This document shows, piece after piece, positions 18,544-63,577 of a stretch of DNA of 64,000 nt. The position numbers and the translations under genes are program-made. Position 1 is the stretch's first letter; every line of letters begins with the position of its first letter. A model generated the notes under the pieces. That model searched no databases, was not told where the DNA came from, and saw only the letters and a list, made by a program, of their open reading frames with translations. Source of the stretch: Mizuhopecten yessoensis (Eukaryota); contig NW_018405342.1 in NCBI RefSeq assembly GCF_002113885.1, positions 1,735,873-1,799,872 of the forward strand, written 5' to 3'.

Positions 18544-21500
18544 CTATTCAAACTTGAAAGACAGTTTAGAGATAATAATAGAGGACGATTTAGAGAGCAG
18601 TACGGAGAACAGTTTAGAGAGAAGTATGTAGAACAGTTTAGAGAGAAGGATGTAGAACAGTTTAGAGAGAAGGATGTAGACCAGTTTAGAGAGAAGTATG
18701 TAGAACAGTTTAGAGAGACGGATGTAGAACAGTTTAGAGAGAAGGATGTAGAACCGTTTAGAGAGAAGGATGTAGAACAGTTTAGAGAGAAGTATGTAGA
18801 ACACTATTCAAACTTGAAAGACAGTTTAGAGATAATAATAGAGGACGATTTAGAGAGCAGTACAGAGAACAGTTTAGAGAGAAGTATGTAGAACAGTCTA
18901 GAGAGAAGTATGTAGAACAGTTTAGAGAGAAGCATGTAGAACAGTTTAGAGAGAAGTATGTAGAACGGTTTAGAGAGAAGTATTGAGAACGGTTTAGAGA
19001 GAAGGATGTAGAACAGTTTAGAGAGAAGGATGTAGAACAGTTTAGAGAGAAGTATGTAGAACGGTTTAGAGAGAAGTATTGAGAACGGTTTAGAGAGAAG
19101 GATGTAGAACAGTTTAGAGAGAAGTATGGAGTATAGAGAACGGTTTAGACATAAGCATGGAGAGCAGGTTAGAATGATGTATAGAGAACAGTTTAGAGAG
19201 AAGTATTGAGAACAGTTTAGGGATAAATATGGATAACAGTTTACAGATAAGTATAGATAACAGATTAGAGAAAGGTATAGAGAACGGTTTAGAGAGAAGT
19301 ATAGAGGACAGTTTAGAGAGAAGTATGGAGAACGGTTTAGAAAGAAGTATAGAGAACAGTTTAGAGAGAAGTATAGAGAACGGTTTAGAGAGAAGTATAG
19401 AGGACAGTTTAGAGAGAAGTATGGAGAACGGTTTAGAAAGAAGTATAGAGAACAGTTTAGAGAGAAGTATAGAGAACGGTTTAGAGAGAAGTATAGAGGA
19501 CAGTTTAGAGAGAAGTATGGAGAACGGTTTAGAAAGAAGTATAGAGAACAGTTTAGAGAGAAGTATAGAGAACGGTTTAGAGAGAAGTATAGAGGACAGT
19601 TTAGAGAGAAGTATGGAGAACGGTTTAGAAAGAAGTATAGAGAACAGTTTAGAGAGAAGTATAGAGAACGGTTTAGAGAGAAGTATAGAGGACAGTTTAG
19701 AGAGAAGTATGGAGAACGGTTTAGAAAGAAGTATAGAGAACAGTTTAGAGAGAAGTATAGAGAATGATTTAGAGAGATGAATGGGGAATAGTTTAGAGAT
19801 AAGTATAGAGAACAGTATAGAGAGATGTATGGAGAATAGTTTAGAGAGAAGTATGGAGAACAGTTCAGAGAGAAGTATAGAGAATAGTTTAGAGAGAAGT
19901 ATGGAGAACAGTGAAGAGAGAAGTATGGAGAACGGTCTAGAGAGAAGTATAGAGAATAGTTTAGAGAGAAGTATGGAGAACAGTGAAGAGAGAAGTTTAG
20001 AGAGAAGTATGGAGAACAGTCTAGAGAGAAGTATAGAGAATAGTTTAGAGAGAAGTATGGAGAACAGTTCAGAGAGAAGTATAGAGAATAGTTTAGAGAG
20101 AAGTATGGAGAACAGTTCAGAGAGAAGTATAGAGAATAGTTTAGAGAGAAGTATCGAGAACAGTTTAGAGAGAAGTATGGAGAACAGTTTAGAGAGAAGG
20201 ATGGAGAACAGTGAAGAGAGAAGTATGGAGAACAGTGAAGAGAGAAGTTTAGAGAGAAGTATGGAGAACAATTTGGAGAGAAGTATAGAGAATAGTTTAG
20301 AGAGAAGGATCGAGAACAGTTTAGAGAGAAGTATGGAGAACAGTGAAGAGAGAAGTATGGAGAACGGTCTAGAGAGAAGTATAGAGAATAGTTTAGAGAG
20401 AAGTATCGAGAACAGTTTAGAGAGAAGTATGGAGAACAGTCTAGAGAGAAGTATAGAGAATAGTTTAGAGAGAAGTATGGAGAACAGTTTAGAGCGAAGT
20501 ATCAAACAGTTCAGAGAGAAGTGTGGAGAACAGTTTAGAGAGAAGTATGTAGAACAGTCTAGAGAGAAGTATGTAGAACAGTTTAGAGAGAAGCATGTAG
20601 AACAGTTTAGAGAGAAGTATGTAGAACAGTCTAGAGAGAAGTATGTAGAACAGTTTAGAGAGAAGTATATAGAACGGTTTAGAGAGAAGTATTGAGAACG
20701 GTTTAGAGAGAAGGATGTAGAACAGTTTAGAGAGAAGGGTGTAGAAAAGTTTAGAGAGAAGGATGTAGAACAGTTTAGAGAGAAGGATGTAGACCAGTTT
20801 AGAGAGAAGTATGTAGAACAGTTTAGAGAGAAGTATGTAGAACGGTTTAGAGAGAAGTATTGAGAACGGTTTAGAGAGAAGGATGTAGAACAGTTTAGAG
20901 AGAAGGATGTAGAACAGTTTAGAGAGAAGGATGTAGAACAGTTTAGAGAGAAGTATGTAGAACAGTTTAGAGAGAAGTATGGAGAACAGTTTAGAGAGAA
21001 GTATGGAGAACAGTGAAGAGAGAAGTATGGAGAACGGTCTAGAGAGAAGTATAGAGAATAGTTTAGAGAGAAGTATCGAGAACAGTTTAGATAGCAGTAT
21101 TGAGAACAGTTTAGAGAGAAGTATCGAGAACAGTTTAGATAGCAGTATGTAGAACAGTTTAGAGAGAAGTATCGAGAACAGTTTAGATAGCAGTATTGAG
21201 AACAGTTTAGAGAGAAGTATCGAGAACAGTTCAGAGAGAAGTATGGAAAACAGTTTAGAGAGAAGTATGGAGAACAGTTTAGAGATAAGTATGGAGAACA
21301 GTCTAGAGAGAAGTATAGAGAATAGTTTAGAGAGAAGTATGGAGAACAGTTTAGAGCGAAGTATCGAGAACAGTTCAGAGAGAAGTGTGGAAAACAGTTT
21401 AGAGAGAAGTATGGAGAACAGTGAAGAGAGAAGTTTAGAGAGAAGTATGGAGAACAGTTTAGAGAGAAGTATGGAGAACAGTGAAGAGAGAAGTATGGAG

Positions 21501-22290
21501 AACAGTGAAGAGAGAAGTTTAGAGAGAAGTATAGAGTATAGTTTAGAGAGAAGTATGGAGAACAGTTTAGAGAGAAGTATAGAGAATGGTTTAGAGAGAA
21601 GTATCGAGAACAGTTTAGAGAGAAGTATAGAGAACAGTTCAGAGAGAAGTAAGGAGAACAGTTTAGAGAGAAGTATAGAGAATAGTTTAGAGAGAAGTAT
21701 GGTGAACAGTTTAGAGAGAAGTATCGAGAACAGTTTAGAGAGAAGTATGTAGAACAGTTTAGAGAGAAGTATGGAGAACAGTGAAGAGAGAGGTTTAGAG
21801 AGAAGTATGGAAAACAGTTTAGAGAGAAGTATGGAGAACAGTTTAGAGAGAAGTATAGAGAACAGTTTAGAGAGAAGTATCGATAACAGTTTAGAGAGAA
21901 GTATGGAGAACAGTGAAGAGAGAAGTTTAGAGAGAAGTATAGAGTATAGTTTAGAGAGAAGTATGGAGAACAGTTTAGAGAGAAGTATAGAGAACAGTTT
22001 AGAGAGAAGTATAGAGAATAGTTTAGACAGAAGTATAGAGAACAGTTTAGAGAGAAGTATGGAGAACAGTTTAGAGAGAAGTATCGAGAACAGTTTAGAG
22101 AGAAGTATCGAGAACAGTTTAGAGAGAAGTATAGAGAACAGTTTAGAGAGAAGTATGGAGAACAGTCTAGAGAGAAGTATAGAGAATAGTTTAGAGAGAA
22201 GTATGGAGAACAGTTCAGAGAGAAGTATAGAGAATAGTTTAGAGAGAAGTATTGAGAACAGTTTAGAGAGAAGTATGGAGAATAGTTTAT
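18544..22290. repeat. 24-bp tandem satellite (consensus gagaacagtttagagagaagtat[a/g]), roughly 150 units, with higher-order structure
   Basis: Directly visible tandem array. 8-aa periodicity in all ORF-track frames (ENSLERSM / EQFREKYV / YFSLNCSP). Confidence 0.98.
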
Positions 22291-22797
22291 AACAGTGTGT
22301 CTGATTGAATGATACTGGTCAGTCACATGACGGGGCAATAAGCCATCATGTCGATCTCACATGCTCAAGTTTCCTCGATTATATTTTCTTCGGAACCTCT
22401 CTAGAAAAAAATGGCAAGAGCCTATAATTGGCACAACTTAGTTCCGAATGACGGAAGCAGGCGACAACTACACGTATAGAGATGAGGTATAATACTTAGT
22501 AATTTAGAGAAAAAAAGATTCGTGAAGAAAAATATGAAAACAGTTTAGAAACACAGCAGAGGAAAACGAATGAAGAGTGGTATAATAAAGGAGTAATATA
22601 AAAGTTTGGAGAACAATGTAATAAATTGTATATAGAACAGTATATAGAATAGTTCGGAGAACAACATAGGAAACAAACCATTTACAATACATACAGATTA
22701 GAGTCACGATATAATTTGTAAAAGGATACGTTGATGATGAAATTCAGTAGCAACGACGTAACTGTTTGTTGTTGTTTGTGTCTTGTTTAAGACTCTG

Positions 22798-28725: not shown

Positions 28726-29337
28726 TGTTAAAGCAACAAAGTTTCATTTTATACACGAGTTTATTAGTGTAAATTTTATTAACAAGTTAGTAATTTTGAA
28801 CAAATATGGTAAATGTATTATAGATTAAACAAACAATATCTCAATCCCTCGATCTAGGGGTATCACCCCGAGTCGTCCTTCAAATGTGCGCAGACTATGC
28901 ATTGGTTTACAGTAAGAAAAAACAAGTTTTGATTGAAATGTGAACAAGTGTAAAAGACCATTATGAAAATAATTTTGATTAGTATAACGATGTACTGCCA
29001 ATACATCTTGTTACACCTCAAGTGAATTTCTAGCTATTTGATTGGTTGGGAGAAAATTAAACAAACAACCTCTGTCACCCTCCGAAAATACAATGGTTTT
29101 AAGGGGCGCGTGAAATTGCCATGAGACAGTGAAAAATATCACATGCGCGAAAAACATGCGTTCACCGCTTCATTTCCCCACCGTGATGGTCACAAGAACG
29201 TTTGACGGCAACAGCCGATTTTATCAAGCGCCGATGCGATAGCGATTGTAAACAGCAAACTATAAACAAACAAGATGTCATTATCAAGGTTTGCTGCCGT
29301 TTCTGAGCTACAAAGACTTTTGGTGTAACAAAATAGA

Positions 29338-29460
29338 TATGACATTCATTAGCAGGTGACAGTGAATATTGTCAACCCTCAAAAACCCATTGTCACCCTC
29401 GGCTTCGCCTCGGGTGACAATGGTTTTCTCGGGTATTCATAAAAGCTAATGAATGTCATA
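29338..29460. repeat. Long hairpin, likely the terminus of a non-autonomous DNA element
   Basis: Perfect 16-bp arms tatgacattcattagc / gctaatgaatgtcata enclosing ccattgtcaccc-tcggcttcgcctc-gggtgacaatgg. Confidence 0.75.
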
Positions 29461-29475
29461 CTTATATAATATCGC

Positions 29476-29720
29476 TTCTGATACACAAAACCTGATTGAC
29501 TATAATACTGTACATCTTAAAGCTTTTGATACACCAAACCTGATTGGCTTATACATCCTTCAGTGTCTGTTACAAAACCCCTGATTGGCTATATTACATG
29601 TACATCCTATCATCTCTGATACATAAAACCTGATTGGCTTATACATTCTTTAGTGTCTGTTACGCAAACTCTGGTTGGCTATATTATTTCCTATAGCATG
29701 TGATACACAAAACCGGTTAA
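29476..29720. repeat. Degenerate ~40-48-bp tandem repeat (ctgatacacaaaacctgattggct...)
   Basis: About 5-6 recurrences of aaacctgattggct. Confidence 0.7.
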
Positions 29721-30844
29721 CTTTATAAAAAAAAACACCATAACATCTTATTCTCACACACTTCAAATGTACAGGAACGTATCTGCAAAGGGAAATATAA
29801 ACCCGCCTTGGTCTACCTAAATAAAAACAGTTCAGAAGCGTATTTATAGAATCGCCACTTAATAATAGAATCGTGACATCAGGTAGGATCGCTGTCAACA
29901 ATATGTCATGCGTCAATACTTTAATAATGGCGCGTTGCATGGGATAATCCATTACAGCTTAAGAGTTAATGACGACGGGAAAGTGTTGAAGGAAAAAAAT
30001 GTAAATCACTTCTGTATGTGATAGACCAAGAAATATCAACCATTGGAAAAGCTGTTAGAAGTACAGCCCTCAGTAACGCTTCGTGCTTTAACACACTGAA
30101 CCTTAACATTCGTGCCCTAGGTTTGAGGATGACGTCATGGTATAGCTGTGGACTAGTTATCCTATACATTTTTAAGTGACAGAGAAATGCAATCATGGGG
30201 TTGACAAAGAAAATCTCAACCGTCGGGGTAAGCGTCACACGTGTCAATACCCTAGCATAGCCTTGGGATGGATATTAAATTATCCCACCCAATCGATTGA
30301 AATGTTTCTGTCTTAAATGTACCCCATATTGAAGGAATATTTCTATCAAATTCATCATCTCATAAATACATAAGTTTGATACTGTACAATGTACAGTGTT
30401 GAGCCACAGGGAACAGACACAATGATACAGTCGAAATAGTAAATACTATACGTGTTAATCCCATGTGTGTTTTGGGATCACCACGAACTGACAGCTCGAG
30501 TTCGGGTGTTGGCTGTACAAGTCGATTTGTCACTACTGTTGTCATTTAACAAAAAGTCAATACACTATGTGTACTTCTTTCGATCCAGAAACGTAGGTTA
30601 TCAGGGTGTTTAAGTAGAACATGGCTTTTAAAATGAATAAACTTATTTTCAGACAAACTCACCCCACCTAGATATACATAATATGGCGAGACAGAAGTAG
30701 TGTTAGACAAATATAGATGGAATTAATTTTATATATTAGTTCTTATGAAATGGTGACACATATTTTCATGAAAATAAAATCACCCTGAGCGCACCCAGAA
30801 CCCATCTCACAGGTCAATGTGACATACCTACAGCACTGATGCCA

Positions 30845-30960
30845 TACATAGAAATATTGCCGGGCCCCCGTGATATTATTAAGACACATGCAGAAATATT
30901 GCCGGGCCACTGTGCTATTATCAAGACACATGCAGAAATATTGCCGGGCCCCTGTGACAT
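30845..30960. repeat. 42-bp tandem repeat, three copies
   Basis: acat(a/gc)agaaatattgccgggcc occurs three times; ORF-track repeat ARQYFCMCL. Confidence 0.8.
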
Positions 30961-31070
30961 TAACATGCAGTTTAAAGATACATATAGATTTTTCCGGGTC
31001 CCTGTCACATGCTGGCTTAGAACATACGAGAATTTTTGATCTGGAAGAATATATATCAAATGCAATATTC

Positions 31071-31275
31071 ACACAGGGACCTGCAAATTTGTTACAGCTA
31101 TATTTGGACCAAAATTGAGGTGTTTAGATTAATTTAACAGGTATATACAATCATTAGGGGTGGCGTTTGTACCGAAAATTGATGTTAACCCCTAAACCGT
31201 GCAAAATTACTTTGAACACCTCAATTTAGGTTCAAATACTGTACATGTATAGTACAAATGATCAGGTCCCTGTGT
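31071..31275. mobile_element. MITE with ACACAGGGAC termini
   Basis: acacagggacctg...aaattgaggtgtt / aacacctcaattt...caggtccctgtgt inverted arms. Confidence 0.7.
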
Positions 31276-31560
31276 TTGTACACTATTTTAAATGATCATC
31301 GGCTTTTCACTAGTTTTCAAAACTTTTGTTCTCTTTCAGATCAACGAAAACAGCAGTGACAATGGGAAAAACCTCTTTTGACACCAATCCGTAGATTGAT
31401 ATCATTTTGGCGAATAACAGCTTCCCTTGATGATCAGGTACGAGACCTTGATCCATGCTACCAAGCAGCTTCAAGTTCCATGTTGTTTGTTAAGTGAACA
31501 AATATAAATGAATTATTGGGTTTAAATTTAGAATTGCTATTTAGTATGTTTGGATTTACA

Positions 31561-31641
31561 TAGAATGCGCCTCATACCAGGAAGTGGGTTACAAAGTATA
31601 TACTGTGTAACCCGCTTCCTGGCATGAGGCCACGCATTCTA
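31561..31641. repeat. ~80-bp palindrome/hairpin
   Basis: tagaatgcg.cctcataccaggaagtgggttaca...tgtaacccgcttcctggcatgagg..cgcattcta. Confidence 0.75.
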
Positions 31642-31840
31642 CATACCCGCTGCATGAAAAGATCATTCTATACACCAGGCCTCACTGAACACAACGGAAA
31701 GTATCGTCGAATATCCGCCAAATCTGTAGTTGATACTAAAACAAGTTAGTACCACGGAAGTTTGCTAATCCAGGATTCTTATTTAGATAAAAAACGACTT
31801 TCGTGATTAATGAAAAAATGGATTACCGAGGTGTCACTTT

Positions 31841-32050
31841 ACACAGGGACATGGGAATTTGTTACACCAGCTGTATTTATACCTATAAACTGATGTATTC
31901 AGTTGTGGTTTAGATCAACTCTCGGTTAACCTGCCCCTGTTCAGTGATATGGGGTGTTGATGTTAACGTCCATTACTTCTAGCATTACACCCTGTACATT
32001 ATCATAGGTCTCGACATACCAACTGTAACACTGATTCTCACGTCCCTGTG
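31841..32050. mobile_element. Second MITE with ACACAGGGAC termini
   Basis: acacagggacatgggaat...attctcacgtccctgtgt. Confidence 0.6.
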
Positions 32051-32220
32051 TCACTGTACTCTTGTTCCGTCAAAAGTCGTGTCACAGTTAGTAGGATCAT
32101 TTTTTATGCAAACTAGATACAGAATGTTAAGAACACAGTTACATAGAATAGTCATTCTAGTACAGTAAAGCTCCTTTAAACTGAATTGTCTGTTTTCTCA
32201 AATATTTCATTTCAAAATAT

Positions 32221-32226
32221 TTTATT
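32221..32226 (-). terminator. Candidate polyadenylation signal (AATAAA) of the eEF2-like gene
   Basis: tttatt on + strand about 430 nt downstream of the stop codon. Confidence 0.4.
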
Positions 32227-32658
32227 ACATCAATCAGATTTAATGGGAATTGGGCAACATGCAAAGCATATACAAGCCCTCTCCCTCTCTCAAATATTAT
32301 CGAATAACAAGTTTTCTGGGTTATAATGACAAGGGAAGTGTAACTTAGACGAATGGTTCAGTTTCACCTTTATCCATAAAGTGTATAACAAAAGTGTTTT
32401 TGGAATATATGGTGCCGTATAAACGAGATTCCATTGTATAAGACCCCATAATATTAGGCTACATAATCGATTACACATAATCCGGATTCTAAGTATACAA
32501 TCCAGGCAAGGGGTAGATAACCCGTGAACACACACTGACGCCCCCCAAACCAATGACGAAAAAATACACAATATGCAATATTGTATGAGAGGTTGATTGT
32601 CGTTATCAATTTTGAAAATTAATCTCCTGGTTTTCATGTCAACCCACATGAATTACAA

Positions 32659-35261
32659 TCATGCGGAACTTGCGTGTGATCCGGGAATATCAGAAGGCAG
32701 TCCCTTTCTTGCCCTCGTTTCCATGGCAACAAGTGCAGCCGCCGATTCAGGATCAAGAGGGTCACTGTTCATTAGTTCCCAATGGTCAAATGCAACTTCG
32801 ACACGCTTAGCGGAACTGCCCAGCTCACCACTGATTCCTAAACACTTTTCACCGGGAAGGAAACAGCAAACAACCGACATTGGGGTGCGTCCCAATCGTC
32901 GTTCCTCGAGTAATCTCCCCTGTCTATTCGTAAACGTCTCCCTGACAGTGCGCGTGGCCTGGTGAGAGCAGATGACCTCCACGCGGAACAGAGCCTCCAT
33001 TAGACGTGGAACAGACGCAATGATACTGCCTTGTATCGCTCGGCGGATCGCTACAACAACGTCCGAATCGTCCGCGAGCTGCCATTTTGCATAGCGCACT
33101 TCGATCCTGACACCCCGCATGCTCTCTTCACATAAAATACCTTCCCGAGCGGCCCACTGGAAACCGGATATAATGCTGTCCTTAATGTGCCCTTGGTCGC
33201 GAACCTGTTTAGAAATGTAGTACAGCAAATTCAAGCCAGAACTACCAGGACCAAAAGACCATAGTCTGTCGGCCTCACTGACATCATATCCAAAGTTTTT
33301 CGCGAGGTATTCAGCCCTTGCTTCAGGATCCTGGTCGGCTGAAATAAATCCCTCCTCAATACATTCACATAGACCATTCGGCAGAGGTTTTGTCTTGATG
33401 GAGATTTCGTTTTTCTTATTGTTCGGGCAAACTGCAGTACACAACATTTCCGGTTCCTCTGTAACGGTTTCCCGGTAAGCCACGTGCAGTTTAGTTGGTT
33501 TCAAAACCATCTGTTTTTCCAGGTAGGACTTGCACCTCAGCATGAGATGCTCGCTAGTACCAGTGAGAATGTGAAGGCCGGACGCCGCTATCGAGCATTC
33601 TAGTACCGGATGCAGCTTCATAAGTCTCTTGATTTCGATCAAAAGGTTAGGAGCATCTCCTGGATTTTTTTGATCAATGTCCAGTTGAACAACTGGGCTG
33701 ACACTATGTCTAATATCGGTAAACACAACCGGGCTGCTGTGTGACGTCACTACCCCCATCTTGGCGATCATCTGTTCAACGCCACGTATTGCACACAAGT
33801 TACCACAGATGACTTCCGGTACTGGACATATTTTGTCCCCAATTACAATTGAGGTTTCACTTATTTTGGTTTTTCGTTGAGATTCTTTTATTTCCGATCC
33901 GGACACGATCGACCCAGAAAACACACGACCGATCGCGTACAATGTATTTGTTTCTCCGATCTGGTACCATTTTGTTACGTACATGATCAATGGACCTGAA
34001 GGGTCACATGTTTTAACAGCGGAAGTGCCGACTGCGTCTGTCTTACGACTGACTAGCAGTTCGGATCTGTATCGCTGAGATGTTTGCGGTGAAGGGAGAT
34101 GAATAACGATCATTGTCAACAGGGAGTTTGATATCGGTAGCCATTGACACATCATTTCTTGAACATTTGTTCTCGTGTTTGTCTCGTTGTTGTCCAAACT
34201 CATCTGCACACCTAGATTCTCGATCAAATCAGGTAGCGCGCTTCCCTGAACATTTCCGGATGCTTCAAACAACTTAAAAATTGGGTCAAGGACAAAGAGG
34301 TTGAACGCCCGGATGTAATCTTTACTTGGTTCATTCTTCCACTTCTTTTGTGACGAGTTATAGAAGTTATCGCCCCACAGCTTACTGAGAAGCACACTAG
34401 GTGCCACTTTTAACTTCTCCGCCTGCTTCGCTGCTATTTCCCCGAGAGTAACCCCCCAGCTTTGTGATGCAGATCCAAACAACACGTTACCTTTGACCGG
34501 TGAAAATTGGACGCTTCCCATTGGTCCAGACTCGTCGCTGTACGTTGCCATGACACCCTTGGCAGCCTCTACGACACTGTGGATTGTCTGGTACAAATCT
34601 TCCTGCGAAAGTTTATGCTCCATGATAGCGCGGTCAATATTGTTTACGAATAGGACTGGTTTGACCCTCTCCCGGATGGACTGTTTAAGAACTAGTTTAG
34701 TATCCAGTGTTACACCGGAAATACAGTCAACCATTACCACGGCTCCGTCCATCATTCGTAAGGTAGTATCCACTTCCGCTGAGAAATCCACACTTCCGGG
34801 TGTGTCCAAAATGTTAATCACAAAGTCAGTATTGCCCTCCACAGCTTCCATACCTGGGAGATCGGCCGGAGCGCACGTGTGGTAAAGGCAGGTTAGATTG
34901 GCTGCCATAGGGTCCACGTCATACTTTCTACACCGGCCACTCTCTTCAGCGGTCAAATTCGGGCCGGCCTTTCTATTGAGACCATTCATTAGCGGTACCA
35001 TACCACTATCGGTCCCGCCTATTACAGCCACATTTCTTACGCTTTCCGGAATCTTCATAACTCTCCGTACTTCCTCCATTCCTACGCCCGCCATCTTGAC
35101 TGTACCTACGTGTGTAATACCAAATGTCAATATTCCGCCCTCACTCGTACTAAACGTCTGGCAAACGAGCTCGCCTTTGTTCATGTGTCGCTAGATTTTT
35201 ACCTTTACTTTTGTGCCTGTATTATATTGAGTGAACACCATCACATACCGTAGTCAGCCAT
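32659..35261 (-). CDS. Divergent elongation factor 2-like protein (eEF2 paralogue, predicted GTPase-dead, no diphthamide His). Model: exon 1 35249-35261 (MADYG), exon 2 32659-35105; alternative start ATG 35094
   Basis: 841-codon uninterrupted ORF colinear with eEF2 over domains G to V: VRNVAVI, INILDTPG-VDFSAEV, DGAVVMVDCISGV, ERVKPVL, DESGPMG, LWGDNFY, LDPIFKLF, IHLPSP, GRVFSG, SVSPVV, YRETV, WSFGP, GFQWAAREGILCEESMRGVR, PRLME, FDHWE, ETRARKGL. M31 (gtcaagATGG, 35094) aligns to the eEF2 start. In-frame phase-1 intron G|GTATGT...TAG|GT at 35106-35248. Confidence 0.93.
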
Positions 35262-45900: not shown

Positions 45901-48900
45901 GATTTGAAACCAATGCGAGAACAACTCTTTAACTTAACGAAGACCATTTGTTTGATGCATTTTCAGTGATTATTTTATTTAAACTGAAGAAAATATATGC
46001 TTTTCCATCTTTAAAAGTTTATACCTGGTAGATTAATGTTTATATATTCCTTTCTGTGAACGACTAATATTAGTGTTCTTCGCCCTAAATGACATGTACT
46101 TTCGTAAACTGTCAATGGTAAATTAATATCTGAATTAGTATGATGTACAGCTTCAATATCATGCTCGTTAATATTTATGAAATTACTCCAGGGCGCTTTT
46201 ATTACTCTTAATCAATTGAATAATGGATTAACTTAACAATTTATAAATGAAATACTTTTAAAGTGCAATTAGAGACAAAGGCTGAAAGTCAGCCGTGTTT
46301 ACGGCGAACTTGTATGAGTGTATGAGAAGATGACGATTCTTTATTTTGTATGCAAACTGCGTACAATTTTCAATTTTGTTGCCACCGTAAAATCACCCAT
46401 ATCATCAATAATACAAATAAAAAAATCTAATAGAATCATTTCGCATCCATTGTGAATCTATTCAGTTTTACAATGTACATCAAACATTTGCCATCCATAC
46501 AGAATTGTTTGAACATTCAACGGAATAGCATCACTCAGAACTGAAATTTATTTAACGAGAAATACTGGTAGTTTTTGATGAAATAGAGAGAACAGTAGAG
46601 TAAGTAGAAATCACAATCTATGTATATCGTTTAAGGGGAAGTCAATAGACCAGATATTTCGAAACATTTCCTGCAGGTTTGTAAGTATTGGTTTTGACAA
46701 GTTCTTTTTACACAACCAATAAGCGTTTCTATGTGACGTTTCGATGACTAGTACGGTTTGTACACTGTCACCTCCATCAGACAAATGACCAGTGAAGCGT
46801 ATACACACACAGATGTAAAATGTGTACGAGTTGTCCACATAATCGATGTCGATTCGGCTACGCTGTAGGCGTATGTACAATAGTTGGTATGTCAGTACCG
46901 AAATGACTCGATTCAGCTTCACTTTGTTTAAACGTCATAGAAACTCTTTTTGGTTGTGTAACAAGAACGTGTCATAATAAATAGATCAGAGTTTGAATAA
47001 CTGGTATAATTTCTTAATTGACATAGGATTAAATGAACCTTTCTGCCACCATGATATTTAAAAAAAATATCAAAAGTACATAGGGAACATCAATATCAGT
47101 TAAATATCAGAAAATTAGTTTTAAGTTTCAATTGACGTTATTGTGTTATTGTGGGAAACAAACAAGTTTTAGTGTTACATTAATACATAACTTTCAAGGG
47201 GAAGCTAGTATTATATATAGTTCTTGATAATGGCAAATCAAATACACTACTGAGACGAAAATTGTATTCATGCTATTTTAATACTTGTTAATAAAGATAA
47301 TGTTTTGCAAAGAAAATGATATGTATTTGATTAATAATATTTTTTGAATGAATAAGTATGTTGCTGGATACAAAAATATTTTTAATAACGTTGACCTTTT
47401 TATAGAAATCTTGATAGCTGAAAGGTTCAATTTCAATAAGCCGTTTACGGCTCTTCTGTAGATCTTTTGAAGCGTCTAGCTCTCTATGCCAAACATCTGA
47501 TGCTGAACCCTTTTGTTAGGGTTGTTATTTTGGAATACAAACTTCATTATATTTTTTTTTCTTACGAATAAATACAATAATACAAGAGAAAAAAGATGAA
47601 ATGGTCACTTGATGCTTGAACATTGAGATTTGGCAATCCTATTAATATTTGGCTATTCTAACTTAACTTGAGGTAATCAAAATTAAGAACTGTATTGTAT
47701 TAGCTGTATAAAACTTAACTTAACTGAGGGACACTATGTCTTTACTGCAGTAAGTAGGCCTGTTATTGGCAAGTGGTACAATGTACATGTTTTTTGCCAT
47801 ACCTTACGTCTGTTCGTTCGTTCGTGCTTTGTAGGAGTTGTAAATTATACCTAAACGTTTGTTTATAAATTGAACGTTAGAATTCAGCTGAAACTGGGTT
47901 TTTTGTCTGTAGGCGGATTGATGTAGGTTCTATGTTCTAATCTGGGCCTCCTGTTTTACTGTAAATATAGATAATGCCATGCTGTGTTTGTCATAAATTT
48001 GCTATTGTCGTGTTTGTGTATTATGATTTGTAAACTATATTAAAAGTCATCATACGGTGACCATATTCATTCATATATTCTTCTGGTTGTTAATGTATTA
48101 TTTATTTTTTTGCATTTTGCGTCGTCGGTCCAATTCTTGAAAACAGGTGCTTCCATCGTTGTTCTATTGATTATTTTAGTCAATTTTTGAGACAAAAAAC
48201 AACAACAAAAAATCAAGATTTAAGAACTATTTTCTATGGCTGTATTCCTCAGTAAATGAAAACCCATATTATTGCTTATGCAACCAATCTAATTCAAATC
48301 ATATCTTCACATCGCCCCCGTTTACTGATCTACGCGACATATCAGTAAACGGGAACGATATGAAGATACAATTTTGATAAGATTGTTTTTTAAGAAGAAA
48401 ACTCCAAACTTCAACAATTACTAGCTGTTAAATGTAAATGACATGTCCGGGAATACAACGTCTGATAGAACATTTGGAATGAAGTACTTACATGCTAGAT
48501 CACAACATAAAGTAAGTGATCTTTCATTCTATATTTCCTTTCCCACACTTAACCCTATTCCTCCGACTCCAAAATGTTCCAGTCACCCGGAGAATCAAGA
48601 AATACATGTATAAATACGTTATATTTGTTATAATTTGTCAAAACTTGTTGATTGGTCCTTTGGTGTCGTTTAATCAATAGCATTTGTGACATCAGCATAC
48701 GATGTCTGATTTTATTTTGTAGAAAAATATATTACCTTCCATCACTGAAATAGTACAAATAATCGAAGCTTTAATTTGAGTGCATTTATTCCTCTTACTT
48801 TATATGTAAGACTCCAATACGTACCTCTACTGCCAGATCTATCCGAACTTGTTGTTATGCAGGTGCTGTTTTGGCACGTCACTGTTGCCCAGATTCCAAA

Positions 48901-49044
48901 GTACGTGACGTCATCGGTTCCCACGTTGTTCGGGTCGTCGATGTACCACCATGCAGGAAACACAAGCCCAAGCACGTGGAGACAAGTTCCCACCACGCCA
49001 AGCAAGAGGAGTATCACATCTACTATTCTCACACGGTGAGACAT
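42911..49044 (-). CDS. Claudin/PMP22/EMP-superfamily four-pass membrane protein A (~221 aa); exons 48825-49044, 43930-44073, 42911-43212
   Basis: TM1 followed by WW...YFGIW-x4-C-x4-C extracellular signature. GT/AG phase-1 junctions join in frame (SGSR|AWLQGVAVVETF...TSGA|GCVIIIGILLF...GWPLILSSAAAAVSLIIA...SATFM*). Alternative upstream ATG at 49083. Confidence 0.85.
44700..45690 (-). mobile_element. Decayed L1/Tx1-clade LINE ORF2 fragment in intron 1 of claudin-like A
   Basis: Minus-strand translation IKRVCSQGDPVSSYLFLLVVEILA (RT QGDPLSPxLF motif) and KRSTIVQDHSEGELKIIDLENFIYGLK, with stops and frameshifts. The left boundary is approximate. Confidence 0.75.
46695..46974. mobile_element. MITE with ~45-bp imperfect TIRs
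   Basis: tgacaagttctttttacacaaccaataagcgtttctatg / catagaaactctttttggttgtgtaacaagaacgtgtca. Confidence 0.6.
48302..48368. repeat. Hairpin
   Basis: tatcttca.atcg..cccgtttactgat...atcagtaaacggg..cgat.tgaagata. Confidence 0.6.
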
Positions 49045-51108
49045 CTTCAAAGAGAGGCTCTTGGATTCTGCCGTCTCGGTCATTACGTCAATCCCGCTAA
49101 GGTTTATGGCAACGTCGGTCGATACTGATAGCCAAGGATAGCCAATTCCTCTCAATATTTGCTAGGACGGGGTATTTTTTTTAAAAATCATTCGCCAACC
49201 AAACTGACAATTCTTACGGCAAAAAAACAAGATGACGTTATGTGCACATGTAACGGCAATCGAAAAGAATAAGTAATCAGTTCCAGAAAAGTTACTTATG
49301 ATAAAATGAGATTATGACGAGATCTTCATTGGTACTTTGGAATGATGTTGGAAGATAATTATCAAGAAAAAGAATATTGTCTTTAAGTTGTCATGCACGT
49401 AACTTTGATGACGCCACAGATTCTGTATTTCTTCCCAGATTACGATGCTATAATATGTCTACGATGAAAATAACACCGCGTTGTCCGTATTACCACACAG
49501 CATGATCACATAAACTGATGACGTCAGTACTGATATCATATGTACATGTAAATGTATTACCTACCTACTTAACACTCACACACTTGTAGTATATAGTTAA
49601 TGAGAGGTTTAAATCTATATCACAGAGTAATACGGAGTTTCCTGTAATATTTCTGATGCGTAACGATGACGTGTATTCTGTCATAAAGATTAGACTAGTT
49701 TGATATAATCTGACATACATCCATTCTTAGCTGTGGCTGTTGCACAACGTTTTCATTAGTTATATTCACGTTCCTGCAGCTGATCGTCCGAACCCAATCC
49801 AGTTATTGCTGGTCGAGAACATTCAAGAGTTTTATATGCGGCCGATAATACGTTATGGTATATTTGCGTCATAAACAGTCTGTTTGTCTCCCTAATCTCT
49901 TCAACAGACTTGAAGAAAACAAACTTCAAAAGTCAAATAGAAAATTTTAAATGATATATTACTCTAGATCCGTAAAACGTGTTGAAAATATTGTCCACAT
50001 ATCACAGGGTGAAGGGCGAGCTGTCATGTTGTCTTACAACATCAAAGAGCGCCGTCTTGTGTTGAGTGTCAGATTTATAATATCACGTGTACCTATCAAC
50101 GTTACGTCTCAAGTTTATGGCGGGTGTAAGTGGTCAGTGTGGGTAAATTGTATAAATTATGGGTTTGGGAGCAATGACGCAGAACCTCCCAGGGGAATGG
50201 AAGAGAATGTGGACGTACGTACATATGTAGTTTGATACTGGGGTAACCGATGTGTCGCAATACGCCTGGATCGAGAGTATCACGATATATTGCATATAGG
50301 AGGAATGTATTGTGATTCGTATCCGGCTTTATTGTCACAGGGGGAAAAATGCTAAATTTAAAAAGATACTGTTATCAGAATTTAAACAAACTTAATCATA
50401 TATTAAACGGATCACAGAGAGTTCAGATTTTCGTTCAACCAACCATCGATTATGAAATTTCATCTTAATTTCACCACTACTATCTTGTGAATTCAGTTTT
50501 CCGATGTGACAGCCCTGTTGATACCGTCAACTTTAAGTAGTAAACCGGTGGGTGATCGTTAGCATAATCAGTTTATGATTTTATGGACCTTAATACCCAA
50601 ATAAAGTGAGAACGCTATTTTCAAATCAATAGACGAAGTTGTTAACTATATCTTATGTGTCGTTCTTTAAAAATGTGTGGATTTCAAGCAATCGTTTTGC
50701 ATTTTGTTTAATTTTTTCTACATTAGTAAAAAATATTTTTTTTGTCAATTTTAGTTCTGTTAGAAACCGATTATATCGATGATGGAATTTGTAATCGATC
50801 ATCGGACTTGAAAAGGGCGAACCGATCGATTTTCGATTATATTAGATCATCAGTCCATCACTACGGCGTCAACATTTGCCGAAATAAAGGTCTGTGTTAT
50901 CACAATCGATATGTGATCGGTAAGAGTATAAATTGACATTACACCACGGCCTTGAATTTCGCAATACCCATTGATTCAGGCGCGAAACAAGTGAACGTAA
51001 CGAATGAGGTAGTATGTCAGTATGATACAGACTGTGTATCACATAGTTTTACGAGAAGCTTGGCTACTGTTCATAACAATTAATATCATACTAATTTTAT
51101 TGTGTTAT

Positions 51109-51989: not shown

Positions 51990-52192
51990 GGCCTGTATTC
52001 ATGAAATTGTTCTCATGCTCACTTGAATCATTTTAAACGATCAAAAAGTCAAATGCCAAGATTGAAAACAGTTTCTTCAAAGTTTTTCAAATCATTGACA
52101 AAATAAGATTTTATTAAATAACCGGAACGAGAAATTAGGCTTGAAAGCAAAATCCTTGCTTGAGCATGAGAACGGTTTCATGAATACGGGCC
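51990..52192. mobile_element. MITE sharing TIRs with 25438-25690
   Basis: ggcctgtattcatgaaattgttctcatgctca / tgagcatgagaacggtttcatgaatacgggcc. Confidence 0.8.
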
Positions 52193-52239
52193 TTGTACGT
52201 TTAGACGTCCTGATATTGATACAGAAGACGCTAAATTAA

Positions 52240-52867
52240 GGGGGCCGTGGTGGCTGAATGGTTGGGGGCCGTGGTGGCTGAATGGTTGGGGTCCGTGGTG
52301 GCCGAATAGTTGGGGGCCGTGGTGGCCGAATGGTTGGGGGCCGTGGTGGCCGANCTGAATGGTTGGGGGTCGTGGTGGCTGAATGGTTGGGGGTCGTGGT
52401 GGCTGAATGGTTGGGGGTCGTGGTGGCTGAATGGTTGGGGGTCGTGGTGGCTGAATGGTTGGGGGTCGTGGTGGCTGAATGGTTGGGGGTCGTGGTGGCT
52501 GAATGGTTGGGGGTCGTGGTGGCTGAATGGTTGGGGGTCGTGGTGGCTGAATGGTTGGGGGTCGTGGTGGCTGAATGGTTGGGGGTCGTGGTGGCTGAAT
52601 GGTTGGGGGTCGTGGTGGCTGAATGGTTGGGGGTCGTGGTGGCTGAATGGTTGGGGGTCGTGGTGGCTGAATGGTTGGGGGTCGTGGTGGCTGAATGGTT
52701 GGGGGTCGTGGTGACTGAATGGTTGGGGGTCGTGGTGGCTGAATGGTTGGGGGTCGTGGTGGCTGAATGGTTGGGGGCCGTGGTGGCTGAATGGTTGGGG
52801 ACCGTGGTGGCTGAATGGTTGGGGCCGTGGTGGCTGAATGGTTGGGGGCCGTGGTGGCTGAATGGTT
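52240..52867 (+). repeat. G-rich 24-bp minisatellite (ggggg[c/t]cgtggtggctgaatggtt), ~26 units, derived from a SINE head
   Basis: Visible array containing an N at 52354. The last unit runs directly into the SINE body. Confidence 0.97.
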
Positions 52868-53060
52868 AAGGCGCTGGCCGTCTTCGATCACCTAATCCTC
52901 CATCACTGGGTCGCGGGTTCGAAGCCTACGTGGAGCAGTCGCCAGGTACTGGTCGGAGGTTTTCCTCCGTGCATTCCGGATTTCGACCACCACCAAAACG
53001 TAGCACGTCCTTAAATGACCTTAGGTGTGAGTAGGACGTCTAATACAAACAAACTAATCA
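52844..53060 (+). mobile_element. tRNA-derived SINE (V-domain-like core)
   Basis: tRNA-like head ggggccgtggtggctgaatggttaaggcg (A box TGGCTGAATGG), B box GGTTCGAAGCC at 52916-52926, core ggttttcctccgtgcattccggatttc, tail gcacgtccttaaatgacc...taggacgt...caaacaaac. Confidence 0.8.
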
Positions 53061-53708: not shown

Positions 53709-56700
53709 CTAACGCCGTACATCCATAGACACGAGAGCTATATCTTCCTTAACCTTCTTCATAGAGTTACTGCCCTTGTGTTCCGGTGCATTGTCAAGCT
53801 TCATTAGTGTGAAGAGGGCGCTGACCATGCTTGCGATACCCGAGAAGACGAAAAAGAAGATGACCACTGCGTTGTAGCAGAGAATTTCATTATCTGGGGT
53901 CTGAACTAACTCCCGTGCTCTGGTCCAGGCCCAGGAGATACTGAGGTACTCTCCCATTAGTACCACCATCACCAAAAACGTGACGCACCCTTCAAAACAG
54001 ACAAATGAAGAAATTACATACATACTTGTAATACAACTTATAACATTACATATAAAAAAAACACCTGATGATGACGTTAAATTAAGTTACTTTTTATCAA
54101 CGTTATGTCATACACAACATGTTGTTAAATCACGCGGGTTGATTTATGACGTTACTGGTTTGAATATGTGATGAAAAACACATCTTATGACGTCATTAGT
54201 TTTTATCCGTTATTATAGACAAATCGTATGACGTCGTTTACAATATATTTGTACCCTGATATACATTTTATATTTTCACAGCACTTATAACATTATGTGT
54301 TTGCACCCGTGACAACTCTTCCAAATATGCTCGTACCCGTGATATATAAAGCAAATAATATGACGTCATTTGATTATATCCGTGACAAAACTCACGTGCA
54401 TTGCTTACCCTCGACATATAACATAACACTTATGACGTCATTGGTTTGTACCCTTTACGACACCCACGAGGGTTGCTCGTACCCTCGACATATAACACAG
54501 TACGTGTGTGGTGTCTGTACCCGTTAAATTACGCTTACCATTGAAAATAGAGAACACGCCAGTCACGTAGTTGAAGAAGGTGTTTCGTTTCCATAGATAA
54601 ACAACAGTAGACAGTAAGGCACATATTGTCAGGATAATACCGAAAACTCCAGCAAAGCGAATAAACATCAGGAATCCTGGAAAAGATAAAATAAAACGTC
54701 CATTACTATTGTTTTAGCATCCTATCCAGTTAGCTTGTACAATAAACAAAATATGGCGCAGTTTTTTATCACATACTCAGCGCCATTTTGTACGTTCGAT
54801 TGTTTTTGCAATGACCATTTTTATTTCCTGAACAATGTCTGTAGGCAAGTAACTTGCAAAATTCCATTTGAAAAATGGACGCGTTATAACCAAAACATCA
54901 ATGGTACATTATTCCGACAAATGTACATACTATCTATTTAGATATGAATTTATAATTGATAACAGTTGTATATTTTGAAGGGCAAAGTTTAATTAAGAAA
55001 CTTTTATTACAAACACAGACGCTTTACTTGATAAAGAAGCTTGTGTCACATGCTTGTGTGCAAGACACCATTTAAAAATAACATCTCCGTTTATGACAGA
55101 CGTAAATCTTACACACACATATACACAAAAATGTATATAGAGAATCTGTCATAAGTTTCTCTTCATATTAAATTTATGATACACGTTTAGGATTTTTCAT
55201 GTTTGCGAGCCTCTGGCGAGCAAATATGAAAAATCCAAAACGAGTATCATAAATCTTATATGAAGGGAAACGAATGACAGATTTGTTTTAACATATAATA
55301 CAAAATAAACTGTATAATTGTGATCTGAAACGAATATTTTGCACTTAGCCGCCTCTGAAACGATGAAAATTGCGTCCGCTTCACAATGATGTGACGTCAT
55401 ATTGATTTTTCCTATTCGATTGTGACGTCATTTCCGTAAACACGTTTCATAAACATAGTTTATGTAATGGCTTTATGACACTGCATAACACGGTATTCAT
55501 ATGATACATAAGGTATATAGTATGCCACATTCTATCAGAGACTGCTTGATCCATAGACAAAAATGCATCAAAGCATAAAATTCGATATTTTTGCCATAAG
55601 GACCTTTCTCCGTGGCGCGCCTTATATAGAATGATGTGCTCTGATAATGTGACGTCATCATTTTATTCACAACAGCCTCGCATTAATATAAATTGTTGAT
55701 ATGTAATAAAATCAATACAACATGTATGTGTATATGACGCCACAAATACGCTTGTTTACTCCGCTAAATGTACACATCGACCCTTAAAATCCTGAGTGTT
55801 ATAACCTTCCGCATAGTATACTCATGTCATCTGCAAAGTCTGTCTGTTTGGATTTGGGATTCTATCGACAAGCTAAGGTCCTGTGACGACGGTGTGCATA
55901 GAGAATCGCAGCCGGTCAATGACCAGTTTTAAACGTCATTTTGATAAAATTAAATAGCAAAAACATAGCAGAATGATACTCAAACCGGTCAATACGCTAA
56001 CCGGAAGTGACGATGATGACGCCATCAAAACGGAAATTAAGGATGAGAGAGACAAAAATGAGTGTAAAAGGCTGCTACTTTAGGCCCCTTGTAGGTTTTT
56101 TTCTTTGTTAAGAGAAATATTTAATTGTCCAAAATAAAGCCGATGCTGCGTTTCTGTCCTTTAGATGGTTGCAGTGTTTTTCTATTTTCTACTCTTCTAC
56201 GTTAATATGTCTCGTAACACCTCTCATATCAATATATAAACGTTTATTTGCAACAAACAATATTAAGACAATTTTCATCGTCCAAGACATATGACATCAC
56301 CAAAAAGACGCATACATGTACCCTCACAATTAAGAGATACTTCATGTCATCACTACATAGACACGTGTCCTCTCTATTAATACATATTTTATCACTATTA
56401 ATACACATAAAATTTCTTGATGGATATCTGTCGCCATTCTCCATTCTCTCTAGGCGCATATCATCACTATCTTTAAACCTGTCATCATTATATAGACACA
56501 GGTCATCTCTCTCTTTATACCTGTCATCTCTAGATTGACAACTGTCATCTCTTGATTGACACCTGTCATCTCTTGATTGACACCTGTCATCTCTCTATGG
56601 ACACCAGTCATCTCTCTCTAGACACCAGTCATCTCTCTATTTACACCTGTCATCTCTCCCTAGACACCTGTCATCTATACCTAGACACCTGTCATCTCTC

Positions 56701-62998: not shown

Positions 62999-63577
62999 TT
63001 TAAGTGTTGTTCTGTGTCTGTTACTGAATATATAGGTTATGCATGTTATCGCCTCGTTATTACATCTGATAGAGTGTGTACGGGTGATAAGTGGCTATCT
63101 CACTGACCCCCACCTCGTATCTTGATTATGCTCCCTATAGATTAATTCGTCTTGTATTGTTTAAAGTATGTTATCGGTATACGATCCAATGTACCTTCTG
63201 TACGGATGATTACATACATTATTGAGGAAATCATGCACTATACAAATTCATATATACCAAACTATTTAAAACTTTTACTGTGTAAGAATCCATTAAAATT
63301 ATCCAAACATTTTTAATAGGTTTGAATATTTTTTTAATTTTTTTAGAGTATACAATACAAAACATTATGTGTCTCACCTAGAATTACTAGAAAGATGTGA
63401 CTATACACAGGCATATATTTAACACAGATTCGGAAAAAATGTTCTTAACTAATTTTTGTTTTTGTTTTTACTATTAAAGTTCCTTGTCCCACTGCACTGT
63501 GGGTTTTCTTATATACATTAACCTTTCGTAATTTTATTTTGATACATGTATCATAGTTAGCCCAAGACACTAACGTT

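What the first reader, a model, noticed from the sequence alone, without database searches (positions are those of the whole stretch)
33049..33093. Diphthamide loop rewritten: no target His for diphthamide synthesis or ADP-ribosylating toxins
Seen: after MRGVRIEVR the canonical DVTLHADAIHRGGGQIIPT is replaced by the shorter, acidic YAKWQLADDSDVVVA with no histidine. Established: the eEF2 His (715 in human) carries diphthamide, contacts the decoding centre, and is the substrate of diphtheria toxin, exotoxin A and Vibrio cholix toxin. Inference: the protein cannot be ADP-ribosylated there. In a filter-feeding host exposed to Vibrio it might act as a non-modifiable toxin sink, or the acidic tip may contact the A site differently.
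Basis: partly seen in the sequence, partly recalled or inferred. Interest (0 to 1): 0.72.

Follow-up and report, generated by a model that had tools for sequence, protein, structure and literature searches.

The report
Scallop GTPase-dead elongation factor 2 copy
Scallops carry an extra, intron-free copy of the protein-synthesis factor eEF2 that has lost its GTP-handling residues as well as the histidine that bacterial toxins attack, yet is kept intact across species, so it likely acts as a non-catalytic brake or parking factor on ribosomes rather than as a toxin decoy.

Summary
It belongs to an intact, intronless 811-aa eEF2 paralogue with three orthologue clusters (Ylistrum 80%, Argopecten 78%, unnamed 66%) and only about 38% identity to any true eEF2. 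The loop is not a special case: all four copies also lack the P-loop Lys/Ser, switch I with Thr56, the catalytic G3 His, the G4 Lys and the other domain IV loop. The protein is a predicted pseudo-GTPase, not a translocase. The loop is conserved at the protein's average level, with no sign of an arms race. The genome keeps a normal eEF2 with an intact loop and Dph1/2-family genes, so the toxin target remains. 'No ADP-ribosylation at this site' follows; 'toxin sink' has no support. RNA-type contigs cover the gene unspliced in three studies. Best reading: a retroposed, selectively kept, GTP-independent eEF2 look-alike that likely binds ribosomes; binding is unshown. Similar degenerate eEF2 copies arose elsewhere (Dictyostelium, Aspergillus), so this is a new variant of a known kind, not found described in the papers searched.

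The parts
33049..33093 (-). Rewritten domain IV tip (residues 668-682): His-free, 4 residues shorter than the diphthamide loop, Asp-rich
32659..35094 (-). Intronless ORF, 811 aa, eEF2-derived predicted pseudo-GTPase with all five eEF2 domains
34996..35019 (-). Degenerate P-loop (G1): GGTDSGMV; Lys and Ser/Thr lost in 4 of 4 orthologues
34792..34806 (-). G3 motif DTPGS: catalytic His replaced by Ser/Thr in 4 of 4
34633..34644 (-). G4 motif NNID: Lys lost, Asp kept, in 4 of 4
33559..33603 (-). Domain III segment (498-512), rewritten against eEF2 but among the most conserved windows within the clade (0.93 mean pairwise identity)
33409..33429 (-). Second domain IV loop: SPNKHN changed, His lost, 1-residue insertion
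32887..32931 (-). Domain V Arg-rich segment (722-736), rewritten, conserved within the clade (0.90), net charge +3 to +4 against +2 in eEF2
35095..35184 (-). In-frame upstream stretch with an alternative ATG (841-aa form P0122); a 7-residue stretch of it recurs in frame in orthologue P0005
35312..35319 (-). TATA-like motif about 220 nt upstream of the main ATG (consensus match only)
29405..32658 (-). About 3.2 kb downstream of the stop covered without splicing by RNA-type contigs; likely 3' UTR; its end runs into a repeat at about 29010-29430

Best explanation
The loop belongs to an intact, intronless, scallop-lineage paralogue of eEF2 that has lost every GTPase motif together with both domain IV loops, so it is predicted to be a GTPase-dead pseudo-enzyme that likely binds ribosomes without GTP and dampens or parks them instead of translocating. 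Shown: the ORF, the motif losses, their fixation in four lineages, unspliced coverage by RNA-type contigs, and a normal eEF2 elsewhere in the genome. Inferred: origin by retroposition; a burst of change on the stem followed by purifying selection; no GTP binding or hydrolysis; no diphthamide, no ADP-ribosylation at the tip and no eEF2-kinase control (Thr56 deleted). Least certain step: the partner. The ribosome is favoured because the back of the G domain and subdomain G' (the stalk-docking side) are the best-kept parts and the domain V face stays Arg-rich; the short acidic tip would then not reach into, or would be repelled from, the decoding site.
For: Motif losses in 4 of 4 copies. Same six or seven indels in all four, all in frame. 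ORF open across 20-34% protein divergence; at 0.1-0.3 neutral substitutions per site 10-29 stops would be expected (assumed rates). Among runs X1, X2, X4, 1 of 13 listed variant sites lies in the CDS and 12 in the downstream region (p 0.008; 0.03 if a cluster of four is counted once). Stem branch 1.64-1.68 against 0.14-0.30 terminal branches (LG+G4). Retention of canonical invariant residues: G 101-216, 43 of 83; G', 17 of 33; P-loop/switch I, 7 of 54; domain III, 14 of 60; domain V, 11 of 54 (region 161-326 against the rest p 0.0005, region chosen after seeing the data). The residues matching archaeal stalk-groove M167 and F205 (PMC5887453, passages; mapped by offset from G4 and G5, my inference) are kept in all four (L174, F213). 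Five-domain fold predicted (pLDDT 79.6, pTM 0.63), best Foldseek matches all eEF2. Precedent for eEF2 sitting on dormant ribosomes: PMC6226290 (passages), bioRxiv 10.1101/2021.11.03.467131 (abstract).
Against: No binding is shown. The segments deleted or rewritten (switch I, an 11-residue domain II hairpin, the domain III loop, both domain IV loops, a domain V loop) are those recalled, not checked on coordinates, as facing the ribosome, so canonical docking is likely lost. Only 27 of 67 canonical Lys/Arg positions stay basic in all four. The kept G-domain residues may only hold the fold. The structure model rests on 119 canonical eEF2 rows of 123 and leans to that fold; with 8 rows it was poor (pLDDT 45.5). 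eEF2 on dormant ribosomes holds GDP (PMC6226290), which this protein probably cannot. The one coding variant seen is non-synonymous (T543I). No protein-level evidence of expression; tissue unknown.
Confidence: 0.45

Rival explanations
1. The protein is a pseudo-GTPase that has left the ribosome and serves as a scaffold in another complex, as Snu114/EFTUD2 did for the spliceosome; the rewritten domain III, IV and V faces bind a new protein or RNA partner.
For: The surfaces were rewritten and then fixed in all four copies (111 fixed differences; top conserved windows 498-512, 722-736 and the new C-terminal tail 797-811). Retention is lowest in domains III and V.
Against: No candidate partner; no added domain such as the Snu114 N-terminal extension; domain order and length remain those of eEF2.
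Confidence: 0.33
2. The protein is a non-modifiable decoy that binds diphthamide-specific ADP-ribosylating toxins and protects the true eEF2.
For: No target His. The domain IV helix before the loop is fairly well kept (D659, G664, F665, W667, E671), and exotoxin A is described as docking on a helix near the diphthamide (PMC4549722, passages; which helix is not stated there). Cholix comes from an aquatic Vibrio and acts on crustaceans (same paper).
Against: That helix motif is also kept in Snu114-like and other divergent family members (F665 in 132 of 142), so it is probably structural. The start of the helix after the loop is rewritten. Loop conservation is average, not hypervariable. A decoy should resemble its target, yet this is 35% identical to the host eEF2. 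The toxins are catalytic and the canonical target stays. Loss of all GTPase motifs needs a second explanation.
Confidence: 0.06
3. The protein titrates eEF2's regulators or chaperone (eEF2 kinase, the Dph enzymes, Hgh1-type chaperone) and so tunes true eEF2.
For: The fold is kept while catalytic and modification sites are gone.
Against: The sites these enzymes recognise (Thr56 region, domain IV loops) are the very ones deleted or rewritten.
Confidence: 0.08
4. It is a decaying processed pseudogene with no protein function.
For: Intronless; 38% identity to eEF2; catalytic residues lost; protein not shown.
Against: Open frame in four lineages, all indels in frame and shared, fewer variants in the CDS than downstream, conserved N- and C-termini.
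Confidence: 0.04

Closest known systems
Canonical eukaryotic elongation factor 2 (eEF2)
   Same: Five-domain order, length and predicted fold; best PDB sequence match 593 bits; best Foldseek matches.
   Different: 35-39% identity; P-loop Lys/Ser, switch I/Thr56, G3 His, G4 Lys and both domain IV loops lost; no introns where the two host paralogues have 12 each.
Archaeal EF-2 paralogue aEF-2p (PMC6143161, passages)
   Same: A second EF-2 copy that has lost the SPHKHN and HxDxxHRG loops and is judged not to be a translocase.
   Different: aEF-2p keeps G1-G5 and occurs mostly in genomes without dph genes; this copy has lost the G motifs and sits in an animal genome that keeps Dph1/2-family genes.
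Snu114/EFTUD2 and EFL1/Ria1
   Same: eEF2-fold paralogues that do not carry the diphthamide His and took on new roles (roles recalled).
   Different: Much lower scores (331 and 215 bits against 593); Snu114-like hits keep GKT, DTPGH and most of the Arg-Gly-Gly-Gly-Gln loop end; the host has separate loci that look like both (C4096, C4357; labels from recalled motifs).
Undescribed degenerate eEF2 copies in other eukaryotes
   Same: 6 of 98 fully aligned divergent cluster representatives lack the P-loop Lys, G3 His and target His together; three are named Aspergillus lucknowensis, Dictyostelium discoideum and Bolivina argentea. Earlier AI notes report such copies in Naegleria.
   Different: No shared clade shown (the tree partner of the scallop clade changes); most keep the Arg and Gln of the loop (123 of 138 and 112 of 137 among all representatives), which the scallop clade has replaced.
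eEF2 with SERBP1/Stm1/Habp4 on dormant ribosomes (PMC6226290 passages; bioRxiv 10.1101/2021.11.03.467131 abstract)
   Same: Model for how a non-cycling eEF2 body can occupy the factor-binding site and store ribosomes.
   Different: There the ordinary GDP-bound eEF2 is trapped by a partner; here a separate gene product would do it without nucleotide, which is untested.

Membership tests
Canonical eEF2 translocase | Five-domain EF-2 fold (G, G', II-V) | tested here: met
   Pfam GTP_EFTU and EFG_IV above cut-off, EFG_C and domain 2 below it; model pLDDT 79.6 with an eEF2-rich alignment; Foldseek
Canonical eEF2 translocase | P-loop GxxxxGK[ST] | tested here: not met
   Lys replaced by Met/Ile and Ser by Val/Leu/Met in 4 of 4
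Canonical eEF2 translocase | Switch I with G2 Thr and the Thr56 phosphorylation site | tested here: not met
   7-9 residue deletion, Thr69 to Pro
Canonical eEF2 translocase | G3 DxPGH with catalytic His | tested here: not met
   His to Ser/Thr in 4 of 4
Canonical eEF2 translocase | G4 NKxD | tested here: not met
   NNID in 4 of 4; Asp kept
Canonical eEF2 translocase | Diphthamide loop HxDxxHRG and SPNKHN loop | tested here: not met
   Both rewritten in 4 of 4; motif present in 122 of 122 canonical hits
Canonical eEF2 translocase | Ribosome-dependent GTPase and translocation activity | not testable with these tools
   Needs biochemistry
aEF-2p-type paralogue | Domain IV loops lost | tested here: met
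   PMC6143161 passages
aEF-2p-type paralogue | G1-G5 GTPase motifs kept; host lacks dph genes | tested here: not met
   Motifs lost; two PF01866 loci and one weak PF01902 exon in the genome
Snu114/EFTUD2 or EFL1 | Closer to Snu114 or EFL1 than to eEF2; family-specific extension or insertion | tested here: not met
   593 bits to eEF2 against 331 and 215; 811 aa without extension
Functional retrogene | Loss of the parent's introns | tested here: met
   Single ORF, no splice joint in RNA-type contigs; host paralogues have 12 introns each; intron state of the orthologues not seen
Functional retrogene | Identified parent gene; poly(A) remnant and target-site duplication | tested here: inconclusive
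   AU tests do not reject joining C4226 (p 0.44) or its clade (p 0.49); best tree joins C1786 at support 84 with a long-branch warning; hallmarks not searched for and not expected at this age
Functional retrogene | Transcribed and under purifying selection | tested here: met
   dN/dS not possible without orthologue DNA
Toxin decoy | Binds the toxin and protects the true target | not testable with these tools
   No toxin sequence or complex was run
Toxin decoy | Mimics the target surface or evolves fast at it | tested here: not met
   Loop unlike the target and conserved at the average level; protein level only, 4 sequences

The most novel reading that the evidence does not exclude
Scallops evolved a dedicated, nucleotide-free eEF2 mimic that is deaf to eEF2 kinase, diphthamide synthesis and ADP-ribosylating toxins and that locks ribosomes in a stored state (for example in oocytes or under low-energy conditions): a gene-encoded stand-in for the trapped eEF2-SERBP1/Habp4 module, and the first animal example of an eEF2 pseudo-GTPase with its own job.
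Probability: 0.25. Interest if true: 0.8.

Novelty: new variant of a known kind. Interest (0 to 1): 0.5.

Why it matters
eEF2 is one of the most conserved eukaryotic proteins. A copy that dropped its whole catalytic and regulatory apparatus and was then held fixed across scallop genera is a natural experiment on what the eEF2 body does without GTP. If it binds ribosomes it would be a new kind of translation brake or storage factor in a farmed animal; if not, it shows a recent route from translocase to scaffold like the ancient one taken by Snu114. Degenerate eEF2 copies recur in unrelated eukaryotes, so one worked-out case could explain a class.

Tried and rejected
Testis-restricted retrogene: one marker test on the putative Dmrt1L locus (L026; chosen as the most divergent of 4 DM-domain loci; label by elimination from recalled motifs; testis-biased per PMC6113668, passages). 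Run X20, which the index does not list as holding the eEF2-like gene, has a spliced Dmrt1L contig at depth 182; holder X4 has one at 7.5; holders X1 and X2 show no cover of the exons. This gives no support for testis restriction, but contigs show presence, not absence or level, and only 4 of 24 listed runs were laid. No listed holder is on record as RNA; spliced joints show X4 and X20 are RNA; for X1 and X2 the lack of cover on flanking DNA, where X15 goes on, is a weak hint only. Stalk binding: complex prediction of residues 1-340 with the host uL10/P0 C-terminal 35 residues gave no answer (score 0.00, partner fold uncertain); no evidence either way. More orthologues: profile search, 50%-cluster search (no other representative above 43% among the best 150) and short-fragment search (13 hits, all 39% or less) added none. 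Parent gene: trees put the clade next to the outgroup, in an open fork, next to C1786 and next to a rotifer paralogue (P0133, Adineta vaga) in turn; the AU run did not finish and was redone with a simpler model. P0133 shortens the same loops but by different lengths and keeps the domain II hairpin, so common origin was not accepted. A spliced upstream mini-exon (ATG 35261, donor 35248, acceptor 35106) would be in frame, but no contig shows the joint. First structure model with 8 rows was unusable. Atlas search returned only EF-2 family clusters. Literature: no paper held all of scallop + elongation factor 2 + retrogene, eEF2 paralog + diphthamide or eEF2 + pseudoGTPase + ribosome; searches listed nothing on this gene (search listings only). 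The primary exotoxin A-eEF2 structure paper could not be read, so the eEF2-side contact residues were not checked. No supplements were consulted; scallop expression tables in them may bear on tissue and challenge response.

Full report
Observation. The 45 bases at 33049-33093 on the minus strand encode YAKWQLADDSDVVVA, residues 668-682 of an open frame that runs 35094-32659 (811 aa). Against canonical eEF2 the segment replaces the 19-residue diphthamide loop, is 4 residues shorter and has no His. All 122 full-length canonical hits examined carry the HxDxxHRG motif.

What the gene is. Pfam finds the EF-Tu GTP-binding and EF-G domain IV families above cut-off and domains II and V below it. The best solved relatives are eEF2 (593 bits), then Snu114 (331) and EFL1 (215). 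Among 792 hits (best 120 listed) three relatives stand apart: Ylistrum balloti 80%, Argopecten irradians 78% and an unnamed Logan protein 66%; everything else is 39% or less. A profile search, a search of 1.84 billion cluster representatives and a fragment search added no further member. The host is therefore taken to be a pectinid scallop (inference from the named relatives). The genome holds one copy, a canonical eEF2 on C4226 with an intact loop, and a second paralogue on C1786 that keeps the GTPase motifs and the His in an altered loop. Both have 12 introns in my reconstruction; the window gene has none, so retroposition is inferred. Its parent is unresolved: the stem is very long (1.64-1.68 under LG+G4), its tree neighbour changes between runs, AU tests reject neither the C4226 placement (p 0.44) nor its clade (p 0.49), and at 4 of 4 sites that mark the C4226-type group (group defined after viewing sequences) it has the other state, as C1786 does.

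The loop is one loss among many. In all four copies the P-loop Lys and Ser/Thr, switch I with Thr56 and the G2 Thr, the G3 His, the G4 Lys, the domain III loop and the SPNKHN loop are changed. Shared in-frame indels remove 7-9 residues of switch I, 11 of domain II, 3 of domain III, 4 of the tip and 2-3 of domain V. Of 477 columns at least 95% conserved in 122 canonical proteins, 158 are kept in all four, 111 are fixed to something else and 208 vary. By established GTPase chemistry such a protein should neither bind Mg-GTP normally nor hydrolyse it, and so cannot translocate.

It is nonetheless maintained. The frame is open in four lineages that differ by 20-36%; 10-29 stops would be expected at assumed neutral distances of 0.1-0.3. 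Nineteen of 24 listed runs, in 8 studies, hold 91-99% of its words. Contigs of X1, X2 and X4 cover about 29405-35190 without a splice joint, while the DNA-like run X15 covers the whole 15 kb; X4 is shown to be RNA by spliced joints at another locus. In these three runs 1 of 13 listed variant sites is in the CDS and 12 are downstream (p 0.008, or 0.03 with one cluster counted once; 14 rows of the table were not shown, but the per-contig counts leave no unlisted CDS site in these runs). The one coding variant is T543I.

The loop among orthologues. 9 of 15 positions are invariant, against 429 of 811 overall; the window ranks at the 57th-74th percentile, and 7 of 11 in the core is not above background (p 0.34). 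It is constrained like the rest of the protein, with no sign of either special importance or rapid turnover. A codon test was not possible without orthologue DNA. In the better model (pLDDT 79.6; alignment dominated by canonical eEF2) strand 662-670 turns after five residues into helix 676-693, a blunt tip with three Asp.

Toxin sink. The His is required for diphthamide and for ADP-ribosylation (PMC8807479, PMC4549722, PMC7354439; passages), so the site cannot be modified. But the true target remains, with two Dph1/2-family loci and a weak Dph6-family match in the genome. The helix before the loop is fairly well kept, which leaves toxin docking possible, yet the same motif is kept across Snu114-like and other divergent members, so structure explains it. 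The eEF2-side contact residues could not be checked in the primary paper. A decoy only 35% identical to its target, facing a catalytic toxin, and having lost its GTPase motifs for no related reason, is a poor fit: about 6%.

Mechanism. What is kept best is the G-domain core after G3 (43 of 83 canonical invariants) and subdomain G' (17 of 33); worst are P-loop/switch I (7 of 54), domain V (11 of 54) and domain III (14 of 60). In archaeal EF-2 the groove between G and G' binds the ribosomal stalk, and a G' groove is proposed for eEF2 (PMC5887453, passages); the positions matching M167 and F205 by offset are kept here (my mapping). The domain III and V faces were rewritten but are now among the most conserved windows in the clade, and the domain V stretch is more basic than in eEF2. 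I read this as a GTP-independent eEF2 look-alike that likely still reaches the ribosome and blocks or protects the factor-binding site, like the trapped eEF2 of dormant ribosomes (PMC6226290, passages; bioRxiv 10.1101/2021.11.03.467131, abstract): 45%. Against it, the deleted loops are those I recall as ribosome-facing, and only 27 of 67 conserved Lys/Arg stay basic; a non-ribosomal scaffold role is nearly as likely (33%). Tissue remains unknown; the one marker test is reported under tried and rejected.

Comparison and novelty. Loss of the His in EF-2 paralogues is known (aEF-2p, PMC6143161, passages), though those keep their GTPase motifs. Among 149 divergent representatives, 98 aligned at all four key positions; 29 lack the target His and 6 lack the P-loop Lys, G3 His and target His together, three of them named from Aspergillus, Dictyostelium and Bolivina. 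Two earlier AI notes describe GTPase-dead eEF2 copies in Naegleria (not tested here). Replacement of the whole loop end is rarer: the Arg is kept in 123 of 138 and the Gln in 112 of 137 representatives. No paper on this scallop gene was found in searches, which cover open-licence PubMed Central and bioRxiv only. Verdict: a real, conserved, lineage-specific eEF2 pseudo-GTPase; new variant of a known kind; interest 0.5.

Noticed in passing
L026:1348-1575 (G000:C2617, putative Dmrt1L, upstream of the DM exon): The main contig of run X20 differs from the genome at 17 places, 13 of them A to G and clustered, over nested inverted repeats at 1306-1514. This looks like A-to-I hyper-editing of a hairpin in the 5' leader; a divergent allele is not excluded without DNA of the same animal.
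   Followed up: partly
L013-L014 (G000:C1786:73071-81962): A second intron-bearing eEF2 paralogue, 58% identical to the main host eEF2, with GTPase motifs and target His kept but the Thr56 region, the SPNKHN loop and the diphthamide loop altered.
   Followed up: partly
L015-L016 (G000:C4226): The canonical host eEF2 is itself faster-evolving than its relatives (70-74% to other animal eEF2s, terminal branch 0.29-0.37).
   Followed up: no
L028 (G000:C47749) and L029 (G000:C49251): Tiny contigs with intron-free ribosomal P1- and P2-like ORFs that differ from the intron-bearing stalk loci; possibly contaminant or symbiont sequence, or retrocopies.
   Followed up: no
window 35095-35184 (-): A 7-residue in-frame stretch upstream of the main ATG is identical in the 66%-identical orthologue P0005, hinting at a translated N-terminal extension or a conserved leader element.
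   Followed up: partly
window about 18800-22350 and 52180-52890: Two long tandem repeat arrays with strong GC skew that give repetitive pseudo-ORFs.
   Followed up: no
window 48742-49161(-), 53709-54086(-), 62666-63094(-): Exon-like frames that by recall resemble claudin/PMP22-type membrane proteins and an ependymin-related secreted protein; Pfam gave no convincing match on these single frames.
   Followed up: partly
P0133 (Adineta vaga), P0202 (Dictyostelium discoideum), P0218 (Aspergillus lucknowensis), P0203 (Bolivina argentea): Unannotated degenerate eEF2 copies in unrelated eukaryotes, several lacking P-loop Lys, G3 His and target His: a recurring class worth its own survey.
   Followed up: partly
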